This document shows, piece after piece, positions 1,816-12,329 of a DNA stretch of 13,515 bases. Each line of letters opens with the position of its first letter. The first letter of the stretch is position 1. The notes below the pieces were generated by a model. It had not been told where the DNA came from, searched no databases, and was given only the letters and a program-made list of their open reading frames with translations. Made by a program: the position numbers and the translations under genes. The stretch covers positions 1-13,515 of IMG/VR virus record IMGVR_UViG_3300028952_000008. One strand, 5' to 3'. Origin of the DNA: a virus. Taxonomy: Duplodnaviria; Heunggongvirae; Uroviricota; Caudoviricetes.

Positions 1816-3273
1816 TTAGGAGCGCCAAAAAAAAACTGAAAACAATATAATAACAGGATAAATTTCAAGGCGACCAAGAATCATAGCTATGCACATTAAA
1901 TATTTTGCAATGTCATTAAGCACTCCGAATGACGATGCAGTAGCCCCAAAACCTAATCCCATATTATTAATACATGCAGCCACTGTTGCAAATGATGTAA
2001 GAAAATCATATCCCATACCATTTAACACCAGTATAAAAAACACCGTGAAGAGAGTATAAAGAAAAAAGAAACTCCATACAGACCTCATTACACGATCTGT
2101 AACTATCTTCCCTCCTACATTTACACTCAACAACGCTCTGGGATGAGAAAGCTGATTTATCTCGTGTTTGCTTTGTTTGAAAAGTATAAGAAATCGAAGT
2201 GACTTAATTCCACCACAAGTTGAACCTATACATCCCCCAAAGAAACTTGACAACAGCAAAAACACTATCGTGTGCGTGGGCCAGTTTGCATAATCTTGCG
2301 TAGCTAAACCATTATCAGTGAGCATGGAGCTGGCAAGAAAAAACGAATGAATAAAACTTCCATGCAAGTCATACATACCTATATGCCAGACCTGGAAAGA
2401 GGTAACAATGATCACCACTAAGGCTATTAACAGAAAGAAACGAAGTTCAATATCTCTGATTAAAGGTTTTATCGTTTTTCTGCTAATAACAATATACCAA
2501 AGAGTAAAGTTGAAAGCCGATAGCAGGGAAAAAGCACCAGCCACCAGCTCAACCAAATAGTTATTAAAATATCCGATACTCTCGCTATGAGTTGAGAAAC
2601 CACCAAGCGAAACTGTGGAAATCCCGTGACAAATAGCATCAAACAAAGGCATTCCTGCAAGTCTATAACAGACAATACAAGCAATACCTAATAAAGAATA
2701 AGTTATCCACAGTGTCCGTGACGTATCGGCCAGGCGGGGAGTGAGTTTGTCATCCTTAAATGGCCCCGGCATTTCTGACTGATAAAGCTTTGCACCACCA
2801 ATACCCAATAATGGCAATACTGCAACCGCCAGAACAATAACTCCTAAACCACCTATAAAATTTAACTGTGACCGATAGTACAAATATGCCCGAGGTAATG
2901 AACTAACATCATCAATTACAGTTGCTCCTGTTGTTGTTATTCCAGAAACCCCTTCAAACAGAGCATCAATGAACGTTAAATTAAGTTCTGAGTCAATCCA
3001 TAAAGGGAATGCACTAATAACAGAAAACAAAATCCAAAACATTACAATTATAATAAACCCATCACGGGTACGTAATTGAATGCCAGATTTCTTAGTTGTA
3101 TACCACGCTCCGCCACCAATGCAAAAAAATATAACGAAAGTTATAAAGAAAACGAACAGGCTTTTTTCTTTATAAAACAATGCTACAACCATTGGTGGCA
3201 ACATTGAAAGACTATAGAGCCAAACCAGGAACCCACACATATGAGTAACAACTCTTACATGAGATGTATTCAT
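1816..3273 (-). CDS. trkG: TrkG/TrkH-family potassium uptake protein (485 aa)
   Basis: ORF-track ORF 1816..3291 begins at a TTG; the first ATG at 3273 gives 485 aa starting MNTSHVRVVTHMCGFLVWLYSLSML.... Multi-pass membrane protein with repeated glycine-rich pore-like motifs (TTTGATV, LGGFSTHSESIGYF, NNMGLGFGAT). Visibly AT-rich compared with neighbouring phage genes. Confidence 0.88.
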   Translation of the reverse strand: MNTSHVRVVTHMCGFLVWLYSLSMLPPMVVALFYKEKSLFVFFITFVIFFCIGGGAWYTTKKSGIQLRTRDGFIIIVMFWILFSVISAFPLWIDSELNLTFIDALFEGVSGITTTGATVIDDVSSLPRAYLYYRSQLNFIGGLGVIVLAVAVLPLLGIGGAKLYQSEMPGPFKDDKLTPRLADTSRTLWITYSLLGIACIVCYRLAGMPLFDAICHGISTVSLGGFSTHSESIGYFNNYLVELVAGAFSLLSAFNFTLWYIVISRKTIKPLIRDIELRFFLLIALVVIIVTSFQVWHIGMYDLHGSFIHSFFLASSMLTDNGLATQDYANWPTHTIVFLLLSSFFGGCIGSTCGGIKSLRFLILFKQSKHEINQLSHPRALLSVNVGGKIVTDRVMRSVWSFFFLYTLFTVFFILVLNGMGYDFLTSFATVAACINNMGLGFGATASSFGVLNDIAKYLMCIAMILGRLEIYPVIILFSVFFWRS

Positions 3274-3410
3274 ATCTAAATATTCTTTCAATTATAACCA
3301 CCTTGCTGCAATATTATGATTATACTGTATAAAATTTAACTCCTCTTAGATCTTACTTCACTGTTCCTTATGAAACAATCATCAAAATGAATCATATTGT
3401 AGTTAAGATT

Positions 3411-5804: not shown

Positions 5805-5960
5805 TTACTCCTCAGGTTCGTAAGCTGTGAAGACAGCGACCTCCGTCTGGCCGGTTCGGATTCGTACCTCGCAGAGGTCTTTCCTCGTTACCAGTGCCGT
5901 CACTATGACGGTTAAACAGATGACGATCAGGGCGATTAACATCGCCTTTTGCTGCTTCAT
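5805..5960 (-). CDS. hok: Hok/Gef-family type I toxin (51 aa)
   Basis: Not in the ORF track (<60 aa). Hand translation: MKQQKAMLIALIVICLTVIVTALVTRKDLCEVRIRTGQTEVAVFTAYEPEE, with N-terminal TM helix and conserved C-E...R.G..EVA.F.AYE; SD AAGGAG 9 nt upstream. As I recall, near-identical to HokD/RelF and Gef. Confidence 0.9.
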   Translation of the reverse strand: MKQQKAMLIALIVICLTVIVTALVTRKDLCEVRIRTGQTEVAVFTAYEPEE

Positions 5961-6016
5961 AGCCTGCTTCTCCTTGACCTTTCGGTCCGTAAGAGGCTAA
6001 TCTCTATGTGTCGCAT
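5957..6016 (-). promoter_or_regulatory. hok leader with a translationally coupled 19-codon upstream ORF (mok-like)
   Basis: Minus-strand ATG at 6014-6016 opens MRHIEISLLRTERSRRSRL, ending in TGA that overlaps the hok ATG (ATGA). The uORF start sits in the palindrome TCTATGtgtcgCATAGA (6002-6019). Confidence 0.4.
5974..6003 (+). promoter_or_regulatory. Candidate promoter for a Sok-like antisense RNA
   Basis: Plus-strand TTGACC (5974-5979), 18-bp spacer, TAATCT (5998-6003); a transcript from about 6010 rightward would be antisense to the hok leader and uORF start region. No RNA evidence. Confidence 0.3.
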
Positions 6017-6218
6017 AGATATGGCCTCAGATTAATGTTAAGCGTCTTGCAGGACGCGTAATGTTAACTGGGGCTTTTCTCTATCTGCCTTTTGGTGTTC
6101 ATGCCTGAGACAGATAGCCTCAAGCACCCGCAGTTATTCTACTTAACTAAGATTTCCCCGCAAACCGTTTTTGTCCGGCACAGTAAATATCCAACTAAAC
6201 CAATGGCGTTCGCTGTAT

Positions 6219-6518: not shown

Positions 6519-7034
6519 TCATCGTAAAACATCCTCCACGCTTATCAGTCCATTTCGTTTCAGGTAATCTATCGCCTTCTCCGGTAATTTGCAGTCCGGC
6601 TGAGCTTTTTTCAGTTGACTGACCAGTCGTTTAACCCACATTGTTAATTCGCTAACCTGATTGCCGGATGCTGGTGGATTGTCGGCTTTACCCAGAATGG
6701 CAGCGCAGCAGGCCTCTCTGAGCACCCAGTCAACAGCATCCTTCCATGCTCCTGTTTCGACTGGCGGATTCTCACGCTTTACCTGTTCATAAAAGCGCAC
6801 GGCTTTAACCAGTCCTTCTGATGTCACCGGGACTGGCGGGCCGATGAATAAGGCCTGAATTTCATAGTTCGGCCTGTCGTTACAATCCTCTTTTGTCGGT
6901 ACATATTTCCAGTCACCAGCCCACGGCTTCCCCTGAAAGTCTGTAACGTCTTTTTTCACGTAGCGATATCGCCATGCAACTGGTTTTGCCTGCCCTGCCG
7001 TTTCATGCCCTTCCTGATAATTAATCTCGCTCAT
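6519..7034 (-). CDS. Hypothetical 171-aa protein, last gene of a three-gene coupled operon
   Basis: ATG at 7034 overlaps the stop of the upstream 58-aa ORF (ATGA). Long ORF with normal composition (MSEINYQEGHETAGQAKPVAWRYRYVKKDVTDFQGKPWAGDWKYVPTKEDCNDRP...). No recognisable family. Confidence 0.7.
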   Translation of the reverse strand: MSEINYQEGHETAGQAKPVAWRYRYVKKDVTDFQGKPWAGDWKYVPTKEDCNDRPNYEIQALFIGPPVPVTSEGLVKAVRFYEQVKRENPPVETGAWKDAVDWVLREACCAAILGKADNPPASGNQVSELTMWVKRLVSQLKKAQPDCKLPEKAIDYLKRNGLISVEDVLR

Positions 7035-8335: not shown

Positions 8336-9061
8336 TCACTTTTCCGACACAATACGACTGGAGGAATCGACAATCTGACGGACAATATCCTGGTGCTTGT
8401 TCAGCTCACGCAGCGCGGCGCAGACTCGCTCCCACTTCTGGACATAACTTTTCGCCCGGCGCAGTTCGCGGTTTGCCATTTGCAGCGATGGTATAATCAG
8501 GTCATTGGCTCGCGTTTCAGTGAACGATGGTAGTGACTGCACAATGTCCCCCACAGTATCTGTTTTAATTTCTTCCTGTGTTGCCGCTTCCTGTACTGGT
8601 AACGCAACACCGGCTGGCTGAGGAAAGCCTTTACCAGGTGTTTTCACTACCGATACAACTTTCGGCTCTGCTGGTAAATTACCGTCCGGCAGGCAGTAAC
8701 GAAATTTACCGTTCTGATTTACGCGAATCAGACGACCTTTGCTGATGGCCATAGCCAGCGATGAGTTCACCCTGCGGGAAGTAATTCTGAATATCAGTGC
8801 AAGTTCATCAGCCGCTTTAGGGCCATGCTGTTCAATCGCCTCGATCAGCATTTGCGCTGTCACTTTAGAAGCCTGTGCTACAGATGCGTTTTCGTCGGTT
8901 TGAGTCAACCACCACATCGGGCCCTTGTTATCAGCTTCCCCACGACGCTTCAGTTTCCACAGCTCGTTAATCGCCTCATCCCGGGTCATTCCCAGACGTG
9001 CTGCCACTTCCTGGGAAGAGGCTTTTCCCATTGCTTTCAGTGCGTCAAAAACGGTCTCCAT
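8336..9061 (-). CDS. Hypothetical 241-aa protein with winged-helix-like N-terminus, directly downstream of ydaV
   Basis: The ORF-track ATG at 9112 would overlap ydaV by 29 nt; the ATG at 9061 follows SD GGGAGG (8-nt spacer), 22 nt after the ydaV stop. METVFDALKAMGKASSQEVAARLGMTRDEAINELWKLKRRG... looks like a wHTH. Position corresponds to ydaW of K-12 Rac as I recall it. Confidence 0.6.
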   Translation of the reverse strand: METVFDALKAMGKASSQEVAARLGMTRDEAINELWKLKRRGEADNKGPMWWLTQTDENASVAQASKVTAQMLIEAIEQHGPKAADELALIFRITSRRVNSSLAMAISKGRLIRVNQNGKFRYCLPDGNLPAEPKVVSVVKTPGKGFPQPAGVALPVQEAATQEEIKTDTVGDIVQSLPSFTETRANDLIIPSLQMANRELRRAKSYVQKWERVCAALRELNKHQDIVRQIVDSSSRIVSEK

Positions 9062-9083
9062 TAAAATTTCCTCCCGGTAAAAA

Positions 9084-9830
9084 TTACTTCTCAATTCCTG
9101 GCTGACCAACATTCGGGCGCCAGCTCTCCCAGTTAAAATTCACCCATCGCCCGCCGTTCATGGTCATCCGATCCATAATCCTCTCGCCGAGCAATGTTTT
9201 CATGGCCTCATAGTTCAGGTTTGTCAGCATCCCCACGCTGCGGATCGACGCTGTCCGGCGATCAACAATCTGGTGCAGTACCACCTGCTCGTTTTTTGTC
9301 TCGCGCTGAATGCCAATTTCATCAAGAACCAGCAGATCCACTTCGCACAGTTCCCGCAAAAATTTTTCGCCTGATTGCCCGTCGTCATAGCTGGCGTGTA
9401 GAGCACTCATAACATCAGCCACGGTAACCACAATCACTGTCTGACCGTTTTTCAGCAGGCGATTCCCGATAGCCGCCGCCAGATGGTTTTTTCCGGTACC
9501 AGGTTTTCCGCTAAACGCAAAATTTGTACACCCGACCATCAGTTCATCGGCGATGGATTTCGCCTGGCTCAACGCGTATCGCTGGCCGTCGTTCTGCACC
9601 TGGTAATTCGAAAACGAGCATTTGCGGTGCAACGGCTGGATGCCGGAGCGATTCAGAATTTTTTCCACCCGCAACTGACGATTCTGGCGATTGATCTCCT
9701 CGCAACGTTTCTGGCCTTCTGCAAGTTGCCACTCGCGCCACTCCGCCACCGTCCTGAATGGCGCGGTTACATGTGGCGGGGCCAGTCTGCGGATACGTTC
9801 CAGAACGCCGCCTGTCGCAATATTTTTCAT
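9084..9830 (-). CDS. ydaV: DnaC/IstB-like AAA+ replication protein (helicase loader)
   Basis: 248 aa; Walker A-like GKPGTGKNHLAAAIG and Walker B LLVLDEIG; located immediately downstream of the ydaU-like initiator. Confidence 0.9.
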   Translation of the reverse strand: MKNIATGGVLERIRRLAPPHVTAPFRTVAEWREWQLAEGQKRCEEINRQNRQLRVEKILNRSGIQPLHRKCSFSNYQVQNDGQRYALSQAKSIADELMVGCTNFAFSGKPGTGKNHLAAAIGNRLLKNGQTVIVVTVADVMSALHASYDDGQSGEKFLRELCEVDLLVLDEIGIQRETKNEQVVLHQIVDRRTASIRSVGMLTNLNYEAMKTLLGERIMDRMTMNGGRWVNFNWESWRPNVGQPGIEK

Positions 9831-9836
9831 GGTCAG

Positions 9837-10625
9837 TTACCCCCTGAAGCCTGGCGGGATCGCACTGTCCGGAAACGAGACAGTGTTAACCTGTCGGAGC
9901 AACGTCTCAGGCCGAACACTTTTCGGCGCGAACAAGCCCTGGTATTCATTGGCGATGCTGTGTCGAATCACCTGCTCAGGGGTAAAACCCTGCTGGCGGA
10001 ATTTTTCCAGTTCCCGTATCGCCCCGTTAGCGCCCTGCTCCGTTCGAATCGGTTTTCGCAATGCCTGCCTGAACTGGACCCACTCATTCCAGAGTGTTTC
10101 TGGCAACCAGTCGGGCAGAGCAATGGCCTCCGGCTCGAATTGTTTAGACGCTCGTTTTTGCCGAGGGGGATTTAGGGGGAGATCAGTATTTATATCTTCC
10201 TCTTCCTCTTCCTCTGGTAACGCTTTTTGATCCGTTTGTGTAACGCTGGCAGCGTTACCTTTTCGCTTCAGTTCGCGTATTTTTGTAACTCTCTCGTTTG
10301 TAACCGCCCGTTTTTTCGAGCTTTTTCCGTTATGACGCTCAAAGTTTGGTAGTGAAAGCACTCCATCACTTTCGACCAGCCATCCAACCTGAATTAACGC
10401 ATCAGCAAAACCAGCCATAAAAGTGATACGGTCTATTGCACTTTTTGTAACGCCTCGAGCGTTACACTCTGCGTTACCGTCTATCATTTGTTGATCCGCC
10501 CATGCCCAGAAGCGAATGACTTTCCCTAATGCGGCATCTGGATCAATATTCAGAATCTCAGCAAGCCTGAATATTTCCGGCTTATCCGGCGTAATAACTT
10601 CGAGCTTTATCCAGTTTGAAGCCAT
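9837..10625 (-). CDS. ydaU: Putative phage replication initiator / replisome organiser (YdaU-like)
   Basis: 262 aa, ATG at 10625 with SD AAGGTG; acidic run EEEEEED mid-protein. The 5' half of the gene contains two 19-bp palindromes, reminiscent of lambda ori lying inside gene O. Immediately precedes the DnaC-like gene. Confidence 0.75.
   Translation of the reverse strand: MASNWIKLEVITPDKPEIFRLAEILNIDPDAALGKVIRFWAWADQQMIDGNAECNARGVTKSAIDRITFMAGFADALIQVGWLVESDGVLSLPNFERHNGKSSKKRAVTNERVTKIRELKRKGNAASVTQTDQKALPEEEEEEDINTDLPLNPPRQKRASKQFEPEAIALPDWLPETLWNEWVQFRQALRKPIRTEQGANGAIRELEKFRQQGFTPEQVIRHSIANEYQGLFAPKSVRPETLLRQVNTVSFPDSAIPPGFRG
10240..10258. repeat. 19-bp palindrome GTAACGCTGGCAGCGTTAC (copy 1, inside ydaU)
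   Basis: Direct reading; 7-bp arms GTAACGC/GCGTTAC with 5-bp spacer; an extra GTAACGC half-site at 10217-10223. Confidence 0.85.
10447..10465. repeat. 19-bp palindrome GTAACGCCTCGAGCGTTAC (copy 2, inside ydaU)
   Basis: Direct reading; same 7-bp arms; an extra GCGTTAC half-site at 10471-10477. Confidence 0.85.
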
Positions 10626-10638
10626 TTGTTTTCACCTT

Positions 10639-10657
10639 GTAACGCTCGCAGCGTTAC
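10639..10657. repeat. 19-bp palindrome GTAACGCTCGCAGCGTTAC (copy 3, 13 bp upstream of the ydaU start)
   Basis: Direct reading; same 7-bp arms; lies between the ydaT stop and the ydaU SD. Confidence 0.85.
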
Positions 10658-10667
10658 ATTTAACTGA

Positions 10668-10689
10668 TACCGAACAAAACAGTTCGGTA
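10668..10689 (-). promoter_or_regulatory. Intercistronic hairpin between ydaT and ydaU
   Basis: Perfect 8-bp inverted repeat TACCGAAC-N6-GTTCGGTA, 14 bp after the ydaT stop; downstream minus-strand sequence is only moderately U-rich, so a regulatory or processing hairpin is more likely than a strong terminator. Confidence 0.45.
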
Positions 10690-10702
10690 CGATTAATTTC
10701 AA

Positions 10703-11125
10703 TCAATGCACTACGACAGAATCGCTAGGAGAACCGCCGCCGCTGAAATGTGCTTTACGGTAAACGGCCTGGACTGCATCATCATGCGCATCAATTGCCG
10801 TACTCAGTGCATCCTGTGCCGCCAGTAATGCACGGCGTTCCAGGGTATCGAAGATGCAGAGTCGGTGACGCAGCTCGCGAGGAAGAATTGCCAGAACCGC
10901 AGGGATCAGTTTCTGAATTTTTTCCCTTTGCGCATTCGTTTCACCTTTCAACCAACGATGATAGATATTCTGCTGATTGTTCCAGTCCTTGCCTGGTACC
11001 AGGGGCAATTCGCCGCCCCCCTGGCGCAGATATTCTTCAGTAATTGCGTTAGCGACCCACGCCTGCCCTTTTTCGGCTGCCAGGGCTAACAACACTGATT
11101 CGATGTGCTCATGCTTGATTTTCAT
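10703..11125 (-). CDS. ydaT: YdaT-like protein (140 aa)
   Basis: 140 aa MKIKHEHIESVLLALAAEKGQAWVANAITEEY...; start overlaps the ydaS stop (ATGA). Size and position match Rac ydaT as I recall it. Confidence 0.8.
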   Translation of the reverse strand: MKIKHEHIESVLLALAAEKGQAWVANAITEEYLRQGGGELPLVPGKDWNNQQNIYHRWLKGETNAQREKIQKLIPAVLAILPRELRHRLCIFDTLERRALLAAQDALSTAIDAHDDAVQAVYRKAHFSGGGSPSDSVVVH

Positions 11126-11376
11126 GAATCAACTCCCATCAGCTTTTTCGTAGTAGTTTTATTTCTGCCAATAGTTAAAATTGCATCGGCAGAAAATAAT
11201 CCGTTTGATGCATGAGCGATTTTTTCAGCGTAATTTGTTTCGCCGGTATATTCTGTGCGAGGCAATTTTCCGTTATCCATCCATTTGTAGATTGCTCTTT
11301 GGCTGACACCACAAACGTCGGCCACAACAGAAACGCGAACAGTTTTGATTACATCTTCAAGTGTTTTCTGGTTCAT
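11122..11376 (-). CDS. ydaS: Cro-like HTH protein YdaS
   Basis: The ATG at 11376 has SD GAGGA; the ORF-track start at 11448 would put the N-terminus inside the operator region. MNQKTLEDVIKTVRVSVVADVCGVSQRAIYKWMDNGKLP... contains a helix-turn-helix. Divergent from racR. Confidence 0.8.
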   Translation of the reverse strand: MNQKTLEDVIKTVRVSVVADVCGVSQRAIYKWMDNGKLPRTEYTGETNYAEKIAHASNGLFSADAILTIGRNKTTTKKLMGVDS

Positions 11377-11455
11377 ATCATCCTCACAATGTGAACTTTG
11401 AGTACATGCTATAACAGAACTGACAGTACATTCAAGAGCGAATATCATTGAACTT
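11377..11455. promoter_or_regulatory. Divergent promoter/operator region between ydaS and racR (OR-like)
   Basis: 79-bp intergenic region with two direct AGTACAT motifs (11401-11407, 11425-11431) and AT-rich -10-like hexamers; racR has no clear SD, consistent with a near-leaderless maintenance transcript. Confidence 0.55.
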
Positions 11456-11875
11456 ATGGTTCATGAAGATAAAGCGCGTAAAGAGTTCGCCAGTAGGCTT
11501 GCGCTAGCCTGTGAAAACGCTGGTTATGAACAACATGGAAGGCAGGCAGAAATTGCCCGTCGAATGAAATTAACACCAAAAGCGGTTAGCAAATGGTTTA
11601 ATGGTGAAACAATTCCTCGCCGAGAGAAATTAAGGGAATTAGCAACACTCATTGGAACAACACCAACCTATCTTTTGGGAGAGGATACAGAAGAAAGTGG
11701 ACAGATACGTTTCTATCAGGAGTTAAATCCAAGACAAAAAATCATCATTGACCTTCTGGACGAGCTCCCTGACAGTGAGACAGATGAACTTTTAAAAACT
11801 CTTGAGGAGAAAAAACAGAAGTACAATGCAATTTACGAAGAGTTAGCACGAAAGAAAAAACAAAAAGCCTCTTAA
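11456..11875 (+). CDS. racR: XRE-family HTH prophage repressor
   Basis: 139 aa; HTH RQAEIARRMKLTPKAVSKWFNGETIPRREKLRELATLIG near the N-terminus; divergent from the Cro-like ydaS. The only in-frame ATG after the upstream stop is at 11456. Confidence 0.8.
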   Translation: MVHEDKARKEFASRLALACENAGYEQHGRQAEIARRMKLTPKAVSKWFNGETIPRREKLRELATLIGTTPTYLLGEDTEESGQIRFYQELNPRQKIIIDLLDELPDSETDELLKTLEEKKQKYNAIYEELARKKKQKAS

Positions 11876-11939
11876 ACCAGCATAAATCCGGTAGCGTCCC
11901 CCTCCGGGTTTGTGCTTCACTTTATCCCGTCTCATTTTT

Positions 11940-12000
11940 TTATACATAAAATGTACTTAAAGTACTTTACAATGATGAACACAAAGTACATTATATACCT
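11940..12000. promoter_or_regulatory. Second operator-like cluster downstream of racR (OL-like)
   Basis: ATGTACT (11951-11957) and AGTACAT (11985-11991) form an inverted pair around the palindrome AAGTACTT (11960-11967); TTTACA and TATATA promoter-like hexamers nearby. Confidence 0.45.
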
Positions 12001-12173
12001 ACCAACCCACCCCGCCCCACAGAACGCCGGGCAATACTTCGAGTTACCAGGCAGTGGTCAGGGGTTAAGTAGCCAGCCCGAGGCGTATGAACATGACGGC
12101 GGGGTTCAACTTTAATAACTATGCAGCAGGTTTTTGTTCCGCTACCCCGGCGTTAAGGGGAAATGAGGTCAGC

Positions 12174-12329
12174 ATGGATACTATCGATCTTGGCAACAAC
12201 GAATCTCTGGTGTACGGCGTGTTTCCAAACCAGGACGGCACCTTCACCGCAATGACGTATACAAAAAGCAAAACGTTTAAAACCGAAAATGGTGCGCGCC
12301 GATGGTTGGAGAAGCACACAGTAAGCTAA
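12174..12329 (+). CDS. Small hypothetical protein (51 aa), YdaF/YdaG-like by position
   Basis: ATG at 12174 with SD TGAGGT 6 nt upstream: MDTIDLGNNESLVYGVFPNQDGTFTAMTYTKSKTFKTENGARRWLEKHTVS. The ORF track extends it to an ATG at 12087 that has poor SD spacing. Confidence 0.5.
   Translation: MDTIDLGNNESLVYGVFPNQDGTFTAMTYTKSKTFKTENGARRWLEKHTVS

What the first reader, a model, noticed from the sequence alone, without database searches (positions are those of the whole stretch)
10703..11875. racR-ydaS-ydaT immunity module, with repressor and Cro-like starts differing from the ORF track
The XRE-type repressor is divergent from a Cro-like ydaS that is translationally coupled to ydaT (ATGA overlap). 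From the literature as I recall it, RacR is essential in K-12 because it represses toxic ydaS/ydaT expression, so this module behaves like a toxin-antitoxin-like addiction unit as well as an immunity switch. I place the ydaS start at 11376 (SD-backed) rather than 11448, and racR has no SD, suggesting a near-leaderless transcript as for lambda cI from pRM.
Basis: partly seen in the sequence, partly recalled or inferred. Interest (0 to 1): 0.4.

Follow-up and report, generated by a model that had tools for sequence, protein, structure and literature searches.

The report
Rac-like prophage with HK022-type immunity cassette
This is an ordinary lysis/lysogeny switch of a Rac-like E. coli prophage: ydaT is the K-12 gene, but the repressor and Cro genes next to it are not racR and ydaS; they come from a phage HK022-type immunity cassette whose repressor has a short DicA-like tail.

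Summary
The sequence observations hold. There is a divergent repressor / Cro-like-ydaT pair, an ATGA overlap at 11122-11125, a Shine-Dalgarno-backed Cro start at 11376 rather than 11448, and no SD before the repressor ATG at 11456.

The names are only one-third right. YdaT is 94% identical to K-12 YdaT. The "racR" and "ydaS" genes are unrelated to K-12 RacR and YdaS. Window 11132-11999 is a swapped immunity cassette:
- Its Cro is 62% identical to phage HK022 Cro.
- Its repressor DNA-binding domain is 46% identical to that of HK022 cI.
- Five operators (TGWAC-N5-GTWCA) sit at the positions and spacings annotated in HK022: three at OR, two at OL beyond the finding's end.
- RacR operators are absent.
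- The repressor lacks the S24 self-cleavage domain and instead has a short helical tail like DicA.

A -10 hexamer (TATNNT) lies exactly 7 nt before the repressor ATG in 8 of 8 related loci, so a leaderless or near-leaderless maintenance transcript is well supported by prediction. The toxin-antitoxin reading is disputed even for K-12 and cannot be carried over for these two genes.

The cassette occurs in 1049 of 5426 complete E. coli genomes and in the plaque-forming phage Tritos. Verdict: a known kind of system, modest interest.

The parts
10703..11125 (-). ydaT, the CII-analogue transcription factor (140 aa)
   Evidence: 94% aa identity to K-12 YdaT. Pfam YdaT_toxin 6e-11. PHROG 163 'CII-like transcriptional activator' 5e-36. 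PDB relatives 3c4r and 8bt1. DNA-binding residues H56 and R57 and the oligomerisation residues L107 and A110 named in PMC11879457 are conserved, by reading.
11115..11132 (-). YdaT-box TTGATTCATGAAAATCAA (read on the minus strand), spanning the ydaT start codon and forming the left edge of the swapped cassette
   Evidence: It is the only perfect match to TTGATT-N6-AATCAA in the window. It is identical to the CP-933P consensus (PMC9986795) and differs by 1 nt from the footprinted K-12 box ATGATTCATGAAAATCAA (PMC11879457). Homology to K-12 starts at 11131.
11122..11376 (-). Cro-like gene (84 aa), HK022-Cro type, not ydaS
   Evidence: 62% identity to HK022 Cro over 73 aa, M1 aligned to M1. No significant similarity to K-12 YdaS (best local E 0.025 over 18 residues) and none to DicC. 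PGAP start is 11376. SD duplex -6.0 kcal/mol.
11381..11385 (-). Shine-Dalgarno GAGGA of the Cro-like gene
   Evidence: Read; duplex energy.
11392..11406 (.). Operator OR1, TGAACTTTGAGTACA
   Evidence: Perfect match to TGWAC-N5-GTWCA. Same position as the annotated HK022 OR site.
11406..11435 (-). Predicted pR: -35 TTGAAT (11435-11430) and -10 TATAGC (11413-11408) or TAGCAT (11411-11406)
   Evidence: Positional homologue of the pR -35 and -10 annotated in HK022 record X16093. It is below the threshold of the consensus scan, so this is an inference.
11416..11430 (.). Operator OR2, AGAACTGACAGTACA, 24 bp from OR1; its spacer holds the -35 of the maintenance promoter
   Evidence: The OR2 spacer TGAYA is conserved in 8/8 loci, whereas the OR1 spacers vary.
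11420..11448 (+). Predicted maintenance promoter (PRM-like): CTGACA-17-TATCAT, ending 7 nt before the repressor ATG
   Evidence: 10/12 consensus match. TATNNT sits at the same position in 8/8 related loci.
11449..11463 (.). Operator OR3, TGAACTTATGGTTCA, 33 bp from OR2, containing the repressor start codon
   Evidence: Identical to HK022 OR1 and OR3. Invariant M1 and V2 across the repressor family.
11456..11875 (+). Immunity repressor (139 aa): HK022-cI-type HTH domain plus a DicA-type short helical tail, with no S24 peptidase domain
   Evidence: HTH_3 1.8e-9. N-terminal domain 46% to HK022 cI and 62-72% to S24-bearing cI proteins. Full-length alignment to K-12 DicA, 28% identity, E 8e-15. Best NCBIfam match is DicA, below its cut-off. 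AF2 model: HTH 1-74, disordered linker 77-89, helices 92-103 and 106-138. 99-100% identical in phages Tritos and vB_EcoS-673R7.
11952..11966 (.). Operator OL2, TGTACTTAAAGTACT
   Evidence: Same position as the annotated HK022 OL site.
11966..11994 (+). Predicted pL: TTTACA-17-CATTAT, pointing away from the repressor towards ydaF
   Evidence: 9/12 consensus match. Positional homologue of the annotated HK022 pL, TTTACA/CATCAT.
11976..11990 (.). Operator OL1, TGAACACAAAGTACA, 24 bp from OL2
11132..11999 (.). Extent of the immunity cassette that is non-homologous to K-12 Rac, where it replaces OL-racR-OR-ydaS
   Evidence: Window vs K-12 blastn: homology at 10705-11131 and 12000-12161, none between; alignment.

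Best explanation
Window 10703-11999 is the lysis/lysogeny (immunity) region of a Rac-like lambdoid prophage. The K-12 cassette OL-racR-OR-ydaS has been replaced by a heteroimmune cassette of the phage HK022 operator type.

Proposed mechanism:
- A 139-aa repressor binds 15-bp operators TGWAC-N5-GTWCA. It has an HK022-cI-like HTH domain joined by a flexible linker to a DicA-like two-helix tail that presumably dimerises.
- OR1 and OR2 overlap pR and shut off the Cro-like-ydaT-replication operon. OL1 and OL2 overlap pL.
- OR3 covers the repressor's own start codon and transcription start, giving autorepression at high repressor concentration.
- The repressor is made from a promoter whose -10 ends 7 nt before the ATG, so its mRNA is leaderless or has a 1-nt leader.
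- On derepression, pR expresses the HK022-type Cro, which presumably competes for the same operators.
- YdaT follows through an SD plus the ATGA overlap. YdaT is the CII analogue and binds the box over its own start codon to drive repressor-directed transcription.
- The repressor has no S24 self-cleavage domain, so induction is probably not by RecA-stimulated autocleavage.

Shown here: homologies, cassette boundaries, operator and promoter positions and their conservation.

Inferred: actual binding, transcription start sites, the sign of OR2's effect on the maintenance promoter, the dimerisation role of the tail, and the YdaT-dependent promoter in this background.
For: Context:
- Rac-like prophage next to ttcA, with recET, sieB, ydaF, ydaU-like, ydaV and trkG.
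- YdaT 94% identical to K-12.
- Cassette boundaries 11131/11132 and 11999/12000.

Proteins:
- Cro 62% to HK022 Cro.
- Repressor N-terminal domain 46% to HK022 cI.
- Tail aligned to DicA, E 8e-15; best NCBIfam match is DicA.
- Short-form homologues at 62-65% identity in Salmonella over the full length.

Operators:
- Exactly 5 sites in 13.5 kb against 1.3 expected; 1 of 200 shuffles reached 5. All flank the repressor gene.
- Spacings are 24/33 bp at OR and 24 bp at OL, the same as the operators annotated in HK022 record X16093 and as in 7 other loci.
- HK022 CI is reported to bind its OR and OL operators cooperatively and to loop between them (PMC8053113).

Promoters and starts:
- Promoter matches.
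- -10 TATNNT 7 nt before the ATG in 8/8 loci.
- SD energies.
- Leaderless repressor mRNAs mapped in the analogous K-12 racR (PMC9638921) and CP-933P paaR2 (PMC8630535).

YdaT:
- Box function in K-12 and CP-933P (PMC11879457; PMC9986795).

Function in a living phage:
- Phage Tritos of strain LF82 carries the same cassette (repressor 99.3% identical).
- It forms plaques and transcribes its CI gene in the lysogen.
- It is not named among the ciprofloxacin-induced prophages (PMC9928086).
Against: - No experiment exists on this exact locus. Binding, start sites and immunity specificity are all inferred.
- OR2 is centred near -33 of the predicted maintenance promoter. For most regulators that position represses rather than activates, so how the promoter stays active in a lysogen is unexplained.
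- pR falls below the consensus-scan threshold.
- The K-12 reverse promoter PracR4, which lies inside ydaS, has no detectable counterpart here. No + strand promoter was found at 11133-11376 at the scan's stringency. The target promoter of YdaT in this cassette is therefore unknown.
- HK022's extra operators (OL3 and the site downstream of cro) were not found.
- The Tritos paper does not state explicitly that ciprofloxacin fails to induce Tritos.
Confidence: 0.85

Rival explanations
1. One reading: an orthologous racR-ydaS-ydaT module that acts as a toxin-antitoxin-like addiction unit, as claimed for K-12.
For: Same gene order and same prophage type. YdaT is 94% identical. In K-12, silencing racR is lethal through ydaS/ydaT expression (PMC5700377 and PMC5700373, abstracts), and YdaT overexpression causes filamentation and death (PMC11879457).
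Against: - The repressor and Cro-like proteins are not homologous to RacR and YdaS beyond the generic HTH.
- RacR operators cluster in K-12 but are absent here.
- The TA interpretation is rebutted for K-12 and CP-933P: these are Cro/CII analogues, and the CP-933P YdaT was not toxic (PMC5917428; PMC8630535).
- A repressor of a prophage that still carries lysis, kil-type and replication genes is expected to be essential to the lysogen without any TA logic.
Confidence: 0.07
2. The short repressor is a decayed, truncated cI remnant of a dead prophage, and the region is no longer a working switch.
For: The closest N-terminal-domain relatives are 235-240-aa cI proteins with an S24 peptidase domain. 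K-12 Rac itself is cryptic.
Against: - The tail is not out-of-frame cI sequence. It is a conserved domain alignable to DicA.
- The tail is kept at 62-65% identity in Salmonella short forms, with invariant residues.
- The cassette is 97-100% conserved in 1047 complete genomes.
- The same cassette sits in the plaque-forming phage Tritos, and its CI gene is transcribed in the lysogen.
- All five operators and both promoters are intact.
Confidence: 0.04
3. The Cro-like protein is the 108-aa product starting at 11448, as on the ORF track and in the phage Tritos annotation.
For: The frame is open from 11448. Tritos annotators chose the 327-nt ORF.
Against: - No SD: duplex -1.0 against -6.0 kcal/mol for 11376.
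- The extension runs through OR1, OR2 and the promoters.
- It contains stop codons in HK022, Klebsiella and Salmonella relatives.
- HK022 Cro aligns from M1 of the 84-aa form.
- PGAP uses 11376.
Confidence: 0.03

Closest known systems
Immunity region of coliphage HK022 (cI, cro, OR1-3, OL, pR, pL; GenBank X16093)
   Same: - Cro is 62% identical.
- The repressor DNA-binding domain is 46% identical, with a near-identical recognition helix: TPKAVSKWFNG against TPKAISKWFNG.
- Same operator half-sites.
- OR3 is identical in sequence and contains the repressor ATG.
- Same 24/33-bp (OR) and 24-bp (OL) spacings.
- pL and pR are at the same positions.

   Different: - The repressor C-terminal domain is a ~55-aa helical tail instead of the S24 LexA-like cleavage and oligomerisation domain.
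- HK022's additional operators were not found.
- The gene after cro is Rac-type ydaT with its box instead of HK022 cII with pE.
- The phage backbone is Rac-like.
K-12 Rac prophage racR-ydaS-ydaT
   Same: - Same prophage family and integration next to ttcA.
- Same gene order.
- ydaT 94% identical, and the YdaT-box is conserved over its start codon.
- An operator overlaps the repressor ATG and the repressor mRNA is leaderless (mapped in K-12, predicted here).
- Repressors of similar small size without an S24 domain.
   Different: - RacR and YdaS are non-homologous to the proteins here.
- Different operator sequence, (T/A)TAGGC-N3-GCCTA(T/A).
- A 22-bp ydaS-ydaT gap in K-12 against the ATGA overlap here.
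- The K-12 reverse promoter inside ydaS is absent.
- ydaG is missing here.
DicA, repressor of the K-12 Qin prophage
   Same: Same two-part architecture (HTH_3 plus a short helical tail carrying the L-P-x-S-E motif) and similar length (135 against 139 aa). Alignable end to end (28% identity, E 8e-15). The repressor is divergent from a small Cro-like gene. Phage Tritos carries this cassette next to Qin-type ydfA/B/C-dicF-dicB genes.
   Different: Scores below the NCBIfam DicA cut-off (56 against 101 bits). The DNA-binding domain is closer to HK022 cI. The partner Cro is unrelated to DicC.
CP-933P paaR2-ydaS-ydaT immunity region (E. coli O157:H7)
   Same: A small non-S24 repressor with an experimentally leaderless mRNA. 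A YdaT CII analogue that binds TTGATT-N6-AATCAA at the ydaS/ydaT junction; the box is identical here. A bistable lambda-like switch (PMC8630535, PMC9986795).
   Different: PaaR2 and the CP-933P YdaS were not compared with the window's proteins here. Per the papers they share only 26-31% identity with the K-12 Rac YdaS/YdaT. There is no toxin-antitoxin pair downstream of the repressor in this window, although a Salmonella relative has a HigB/HigA-like pair in that position.

Membership tests
K-12 Rac immunity type (racR/ydaS) | Repressor homologous to RacR | tested here: not met
   BLASTP gives only 12/33 identities, all inside the HTH.
K-12 Rac immunity type (racR/ydaS) | Cro-like protein of the YdaS family (Pfam PF15943) | tested here: not met
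   The Cro-like protein has no PF15943 hit and no significant alignment to K-12 YdaS (best local E 0.025 over 18 residues).
K-12 Rac immunity type (racR/ydaS) | RacR operators (T/A)TAGGC-N3-GCCTA(T/A) in the intergenic region and downstream of the repressor | tested here: not met
   No match at 10700-12100 even with 3 mismatches. K-12 shows two clusters, including perfect sites.
YdaT / CII-analogue family | YdaT homology with the DNA-binding residues H56 and R57 | tested here: met
   94% identity to K-12 YdaT with both residues conserved. Supported by Pfam, PHROG and PDB relatives.
YdaT / CII-analogue family | Inverted repeat TTGATT-N6-AATCAA at the start of ydaT | tested here: met
   Perfect site at 11115-11132, the only perfect one in the window.
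YdaT / CII-analogue family | YdaT-activated promoter directed towards the repressor | tested here: inconclusive
   No consensus-level + strand promoter at 11133-11376. An activator-dependent promoter with a poor -35 would escape this scan. A reporter assay is needed.
HK022-type immunity region | Cro and the cI DNA-binding domain homologous to those of HK022 | tested here: met
   62% and 46%.
HK022-type immunity region | Operators TGAAC-N5-GTWCA: three at OR (24 and 33 bp apart, the third over the cI ATG) and two adjacent at OL | tested here: met
   compared with the HK022 annotation.
HK022-type immunity region | Full-length cI with an S24 (LexA-like) C-terminal domain | tested here: not met
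   No Peptidase_S24 hit. The alignment shows a short unrelated tail.
HK022-type immunity region | Same immunity specificity (cross-immunity with HK022) | not testable with these tools
   Suggested by the near-identical recognition helix and half-sites. Plating or binding assays are needed.
DicA-type short prophage repressors | HTH_3 domain plus a ~50-aa helical tail alignable to that of DicA | tested here: met
   BLASTP E 8e-15 covering residues 30-137. AF2 model shows helices 92-103 and 106-138.
DicA-type short prophage repressors | Reaches the NCBIfam DicA subfamily cut-off | tested here: not met
   56.4 bits against a cut-off of 101.
Leaderless phage repressor mRNAs (lambda cI, paaR2, racR) | -10 element placed so that transcription starts at the A of the ATG, with no SD | tested here: met
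   TATCAT ends 7 nt before the ATG. The arrangement is conserved in 8/8 loci. Anti-SD duplex only -1.9 kcal/mol.
Leaderless phage repressor mRNAs (lambda cI, paaR2, racR) | Mapped 5' end at the start codon | not testable with these tools
   Needs 5' RACE, primer extension or dRNA-seq.
Type II toxin-antitoxin system | A toxin neutralised by direct binding of a cognate antitoxin protein encoded in the same operon | not testable with these tools
   Nothing in the sequence supports it. The literature argues against it for the K-12 and CP-933P homologues (PMC5917428, PMC8630535).

The most novel reading that the evidence does not exclude
The cassette joins an HK022-specificity DNA-binding domain to a DicA-type tail that is not SOS-cleavable. 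If so, about one in five E. coli genomes would carry a prophage switch with two properties. It would be refractory to RecA-mediated induction. It would also make its host immune to superinfecting phages of HK022 immunity, which use S24-type cI on the same operators. A further possibility concerns the -35 of the maintenance promoter, which lies in the centre of OR2. This might allow repressor and sigma region 4 to occupy opposite faces of the same site, an arrangement unlike that of lambda.
Probability: 0.3. Interest if true: 0.35.

Novelty: new member of a known kind. Interest (0 to 1): 0.22.

Why it matters
- Annotation: the labels racR/ydaS, and the K-12 literature on RacR essentiality and "YdaS/YdaT toxins", should not be propagated to Rac-like prophages by gene order alone. 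Among 5426 complete E. coli genomes, about as many carry this HK022/DicA-type cassette (1049) as carry the K-12 racR-ydaS cassette (1089).
- Lambdoid modular exchange: the swapped unit is exactly OL-repressor-OR-cro, and one junction falls at the edge of the YdaT binding site.
- Databases disagree on the Cro start (84 against 108 aa). The 84-aa form is the right one.
- Predictions: these prophages should be heteroimmune to K-12 Rac, possibly homoimmune with HK022-type phages, and probably not directly SOS-inducible. All three are testable and bear on prophage induction in gut E. coli, for example phage Tritos of AIEC LF82.

Tried and rejected
- Literature search for HK022 plus "leaderless" found nothing useful. 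Whether the HK022 maintenance transcript has been mapped as leaderless could not be established from the held library.
- PDB sequence search with the Cro-like protein gave no hit. For the repressor it gave only the P22 C2 N-terminal domain at E 0.006.
- Foldseek of the repressor model returned only generic XRE-HTH proteins such as SinR, DdrO, ComR and the SPC32H repressor. It identified no specific tail fold.
- tblastn with the tail alone against phages found only the identical phages. The link to DicA came from recalling the DicA sequence and was then tested.
- Rfam found no RNA family in 10703-12000.
- No K-12-like reverse promoter was found inside the Cro-like gene.
- Weaker operator-like sites (8/10) at 11213, 12094 and 12211 were judged to be chance.
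- YdaT-box-like sites with 2 mismatches at 8714 and 10689 are at chance frequency.
- An OOP-like antisense RNA was considered because of the + strand hairpin with a T-rich tail at 10668-10699. That hairpin ends before the ydaT stop codon and no promoter was found, so the idea was not pursued.
Full report
**What is in the sequence**

The ATGA overlap between the Cro-like stop and the ydaT start lies at 11122-11125, read.

The 2-kb region is 100% identical to the chromosome of E. coli TUM10008. There it lies in a Rac-like prophage next to ttcA, alongside intR, xisR, recET, kil, sieB, ydaF, a ydaU-family replication gene, ydaV, lysis genes and trkG. RefSeq annotates the three genes as "toxin YdaT family protein", an 84-aa HTH regulator (start equivalent to 11376) and a 139-aa HTH protein.

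**The names are only partly right**

Against K-12 MG1655 Rac:
- YdaT is 94% identical.
- The repressor shares only 12 of 33 residues with RacR, all within the helix-turn-helix.
- The Cro-like protein shows no significant similarity to YdaS and no hit to Pfam YdaS_toxin.

DNA comparison shows homology to K-12 at window 10705-11131 and again from 12000, with nothing in between. Window 11132-11999 (868 bp) is therefore a cassette that replaces K-12's OL-racR-OR-ydaS (1059 bp).

The published RacR operator consensus, (T/A)TAGGC-N3-GCCTA(T/A) (PMC9638921), forms two clusters in K-12. It has no match in window 10700-12100 even with three mismatches. This prophage should therefore be heteroimmune to K-12 Rac.

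**What the cassette is**

The Cro-like protein is 62% identical to phage HK022 Cro, aligned from Met1 of the 84-aa form. Residues 4-102 of the repressor are 46% identical to the HK022 cI N-terminal domain. They are 62-72% identical to cI proteins of Klebsiella, Raoultella and Citrobacter phages, which carry an S24 peptidase domain.

From about residue 85 the window's repressor diverges into a short tail. That tail aligns with the C-terminal part of DicA, the Qin prophage repressor (full-length BLASTP E 8e-15). The best NCBIfam match is also DicA, although below its cut-off (56 against 101 bits).

An AlphaFold model (mean pLDDT 80) shows a five-helix HTH domain (1-74), a disordered linker (77-89) and two helices (92-103 and 106-138). 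Fold search returned only generic XRE-family regulators.

Short-form homologues at 62-65% identity over the full length occur in Salmonella. The short form is therefore an established lineage, not a recent truncation.

**Operators and promoters**

The motif TGWAC-N5-GTWCA, allowing at most one mismatch, occurs exactly five times in the 13.5-kb window. The expectation is 1.3, and 1 of 200 shuffles reached five.

| Site | Coordinates | Note |
|---|---|---|
| OR1 | 11392-11406 | overlaps pR |
| OR2 | 11416-11430 | 24 bp from OR1 |
| OR3 | 11449-11463 | 33 bp from OR2; contains the repressor ATG |
| OL2 | 11952-11966 | |
| OL1 | 11976-11990 | 24 bp from OL2 |

The spacings and the position of OR3 over the repressor ATG are those of the operators annotated in HK022 record X16093. 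OR3 is identical in sequence to HK022 OR1 and OR3.

The same layout recurs in seven other loci: phage Tritos, Klebsiella phage 2b, Citrobacter phage Omnitron, Salmonella phage S9-5, a Salmonella genome and two metagenome contigs. Half-sites are conserved while OR1 and OL spacers vary, as expected for protein-binding sites.

HK022 CI is reported to bind its OR and OL operators cooperatively and to loop between them (PMC8053113).

The predicted pL, TTTACA-17-CATTAT at 11966-11994, is the positional homologue of the annotated HK022 pL. pR is inferred in the same way (-35 TTGAAT; -10 TATAGC or TAGCAT) but falls below the scan's threshold.

**Start sites**

For the Cro-like gene, 11376 is correct:
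- The GAGGA SD gives an anti-SD duplex of -6.0 kcal/mol, against -1.0 for 11448.
- HK022 Cro aligns from Met1 of the 84-aa form.
- PGAP annotates this start.
- The upstream frame carries stop codons in HK022, Klebsiella and Salmonella relatives.
- The 24 extra codons run through OR1, OR2 and both promoters.

The Tritos record nevertheless annotates the 108-aa form.

For the repressor there is no SD (-1.9 kcal/mol). A 10/12 promoter match, CTGACA-17-TATCAT, ends 7 nt before the ATG. A TATNNT hexamer sits at that exact position in 8 of 8 related loci, and the -35 CTGAYA lies in the conserved spacer of OR2.

Analogous repressors have been mapped as leaderless. K-12 racR uses promoter PracR3, and its operator 3 overlaps the ATG (PMC9638921). 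CP-933P paaR2 was mapped by 5' RACE and N-terminal sequencing (PMC8630535).

One point is unexplained. OR2 is centred near -33 of this promoter, so how the promoter stays active when OR2 is occupied cannot be judged from sequence.

**YdaT and the junction**

The sequence TTGATTCATGAAAATCAA (minus strand, 11132-11115) spans the ydaT ATG. It is the only perfect TTGATT-N6-AATCAA in the window. It equals the site footprinted for CP-933P YdaT (PMC9986795) and differs by one base from the K-12 YdaT-box (PMC11879457).

In those systems YdaT acts as a CII analogue that activates repressor-directed transcription. The cassette boundary coincides with the outer edge of the box. In phage Tritos the same cassette and box are joined to a YdaT only 32% identical.

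The K-12 reverse promoter PracR4 lies inside ydaS, which is absent here. No consensus-level + strand promoter was found in the Cro-like gene. The promoter that YdaT would activate in this background is therefore unknown. A box-adjacent promoter, as proposed for CP-933P, is my inference.

**The toxin-antitoxin idea**

In K-12, racR knock-down is lethal through ydaS-ydaT expression (PMC5700377, PMC5700373), and YdaT overexpression causes filamentation and death (abstract of PMC11879457). Jobling (PMC5917428) and Jurenas et al. (PMC8630535) argue that these are Cro and CII analogues rather than a TA pair.

Here two of the three proteins are unrelated to the K-12 ones. Only YdaT-linked toxicity can plausibly carry over. 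Its DNA-binding residues H56 and R57 are conserved.

**Function and distribution**

The cassette occurs at 80% coverage or more in 1047 of 5426 complete E. coli genomes (1049 with any match). The K-12 racR-ydaS cassette occurs in 1089, and Rac-type ydaT in 1506.

Phage Tritos of AIEC LF82 carries the cassette, with a repressor 99.3% identical. It forms plaques on MG1655, and its CI gene is transcribed in the lysogen. It is produced spontaneously at a low level. It is not among the prophages reported as ciprofloxacin-induced (PMC9928086). This is consistent with a repressor lacking an S24 domain, but does not prove it.

**Verdict**

This is a real, functional-looking lambdoid immunity region of a known kind. 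The racR/ydaS identification and the transfer of K-12 TA-like behaviour are not. It is best described as a new member of a known kind: HK022-type operators and Cro, combined with a DicA-type short repressor, in a Rac backbone. Interest is modest.

Noticed in passing
window 5805-6129 (-): A hok/sok type I toxin-antitoxin locus. Rfam sok matches at 5958-6129 (106.7 bits). It lies next to a small Hok/Gef-family ORF, annotated in TUM10008 at the equivalent of about 5862-5960.
   Followed up: partly
window 10445-10466 and 10637-10658; hairpin 10668-10689: Two copies of a 22-nt palindrome, TTGTAACGC-N4-GCGTTACA, lie 192 bp apart. One is just upstream of the ydaU-like replication gene start (10625) and one is inside it. 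A perfect 8-bp hairpin also lies between ydaT and that gene. They might be binding sites for a replication or regulatory protein, or a terminator. The K-12 sequence is not homologous here.
   Followed up: partly
window 12162-12182: ydaG of K-12 is missing. K-12 has 162 bp (L002 9304-9465, containing ydaG) where the window has 21 bp.
   Followed up: partly
window 6549-6760: About 212 bp of the window have no counterpart in the otherwise 99.4-99.8% identical TUM10008 prophage. TUM10008 annotates a frameshifted pseudogene close by.
   Followed up: no
L009 3553-4220 (Salmonella enterica contig): In a Salmonella relative of this cassette, a HigB-toxin/HTH (HigA-like) gene pair sits between the short repressor gene and the OL operators. 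This echoes the paaA2-parE2 insertion in the CP-933P immunity region.
   Followed up: no
L004 5667-5993 (phage Tritos); proteins P0015 and P0021: Database start-site inconsistencies. Tritos Cro is annotated as the 108-aa ORF. Some repressor homologues are annotated with N-terminal extensions upstream of the conserved MV start that lies inside OR3.
   Followed up: partly
window 9837-10625 (-): The ydaU-family replication initiator shares its 3' part with K-12 ydaU (homology at 9020-10198) but has a different 5' part. This is a second mosaic junction immediately after ydaT.
   Followed up: no
window 1816-3291 (-): A trkG-like potassium transporter gene is embedded in the prophage next to the lysis genes, as in K-12 Rac.
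   Followed up: no
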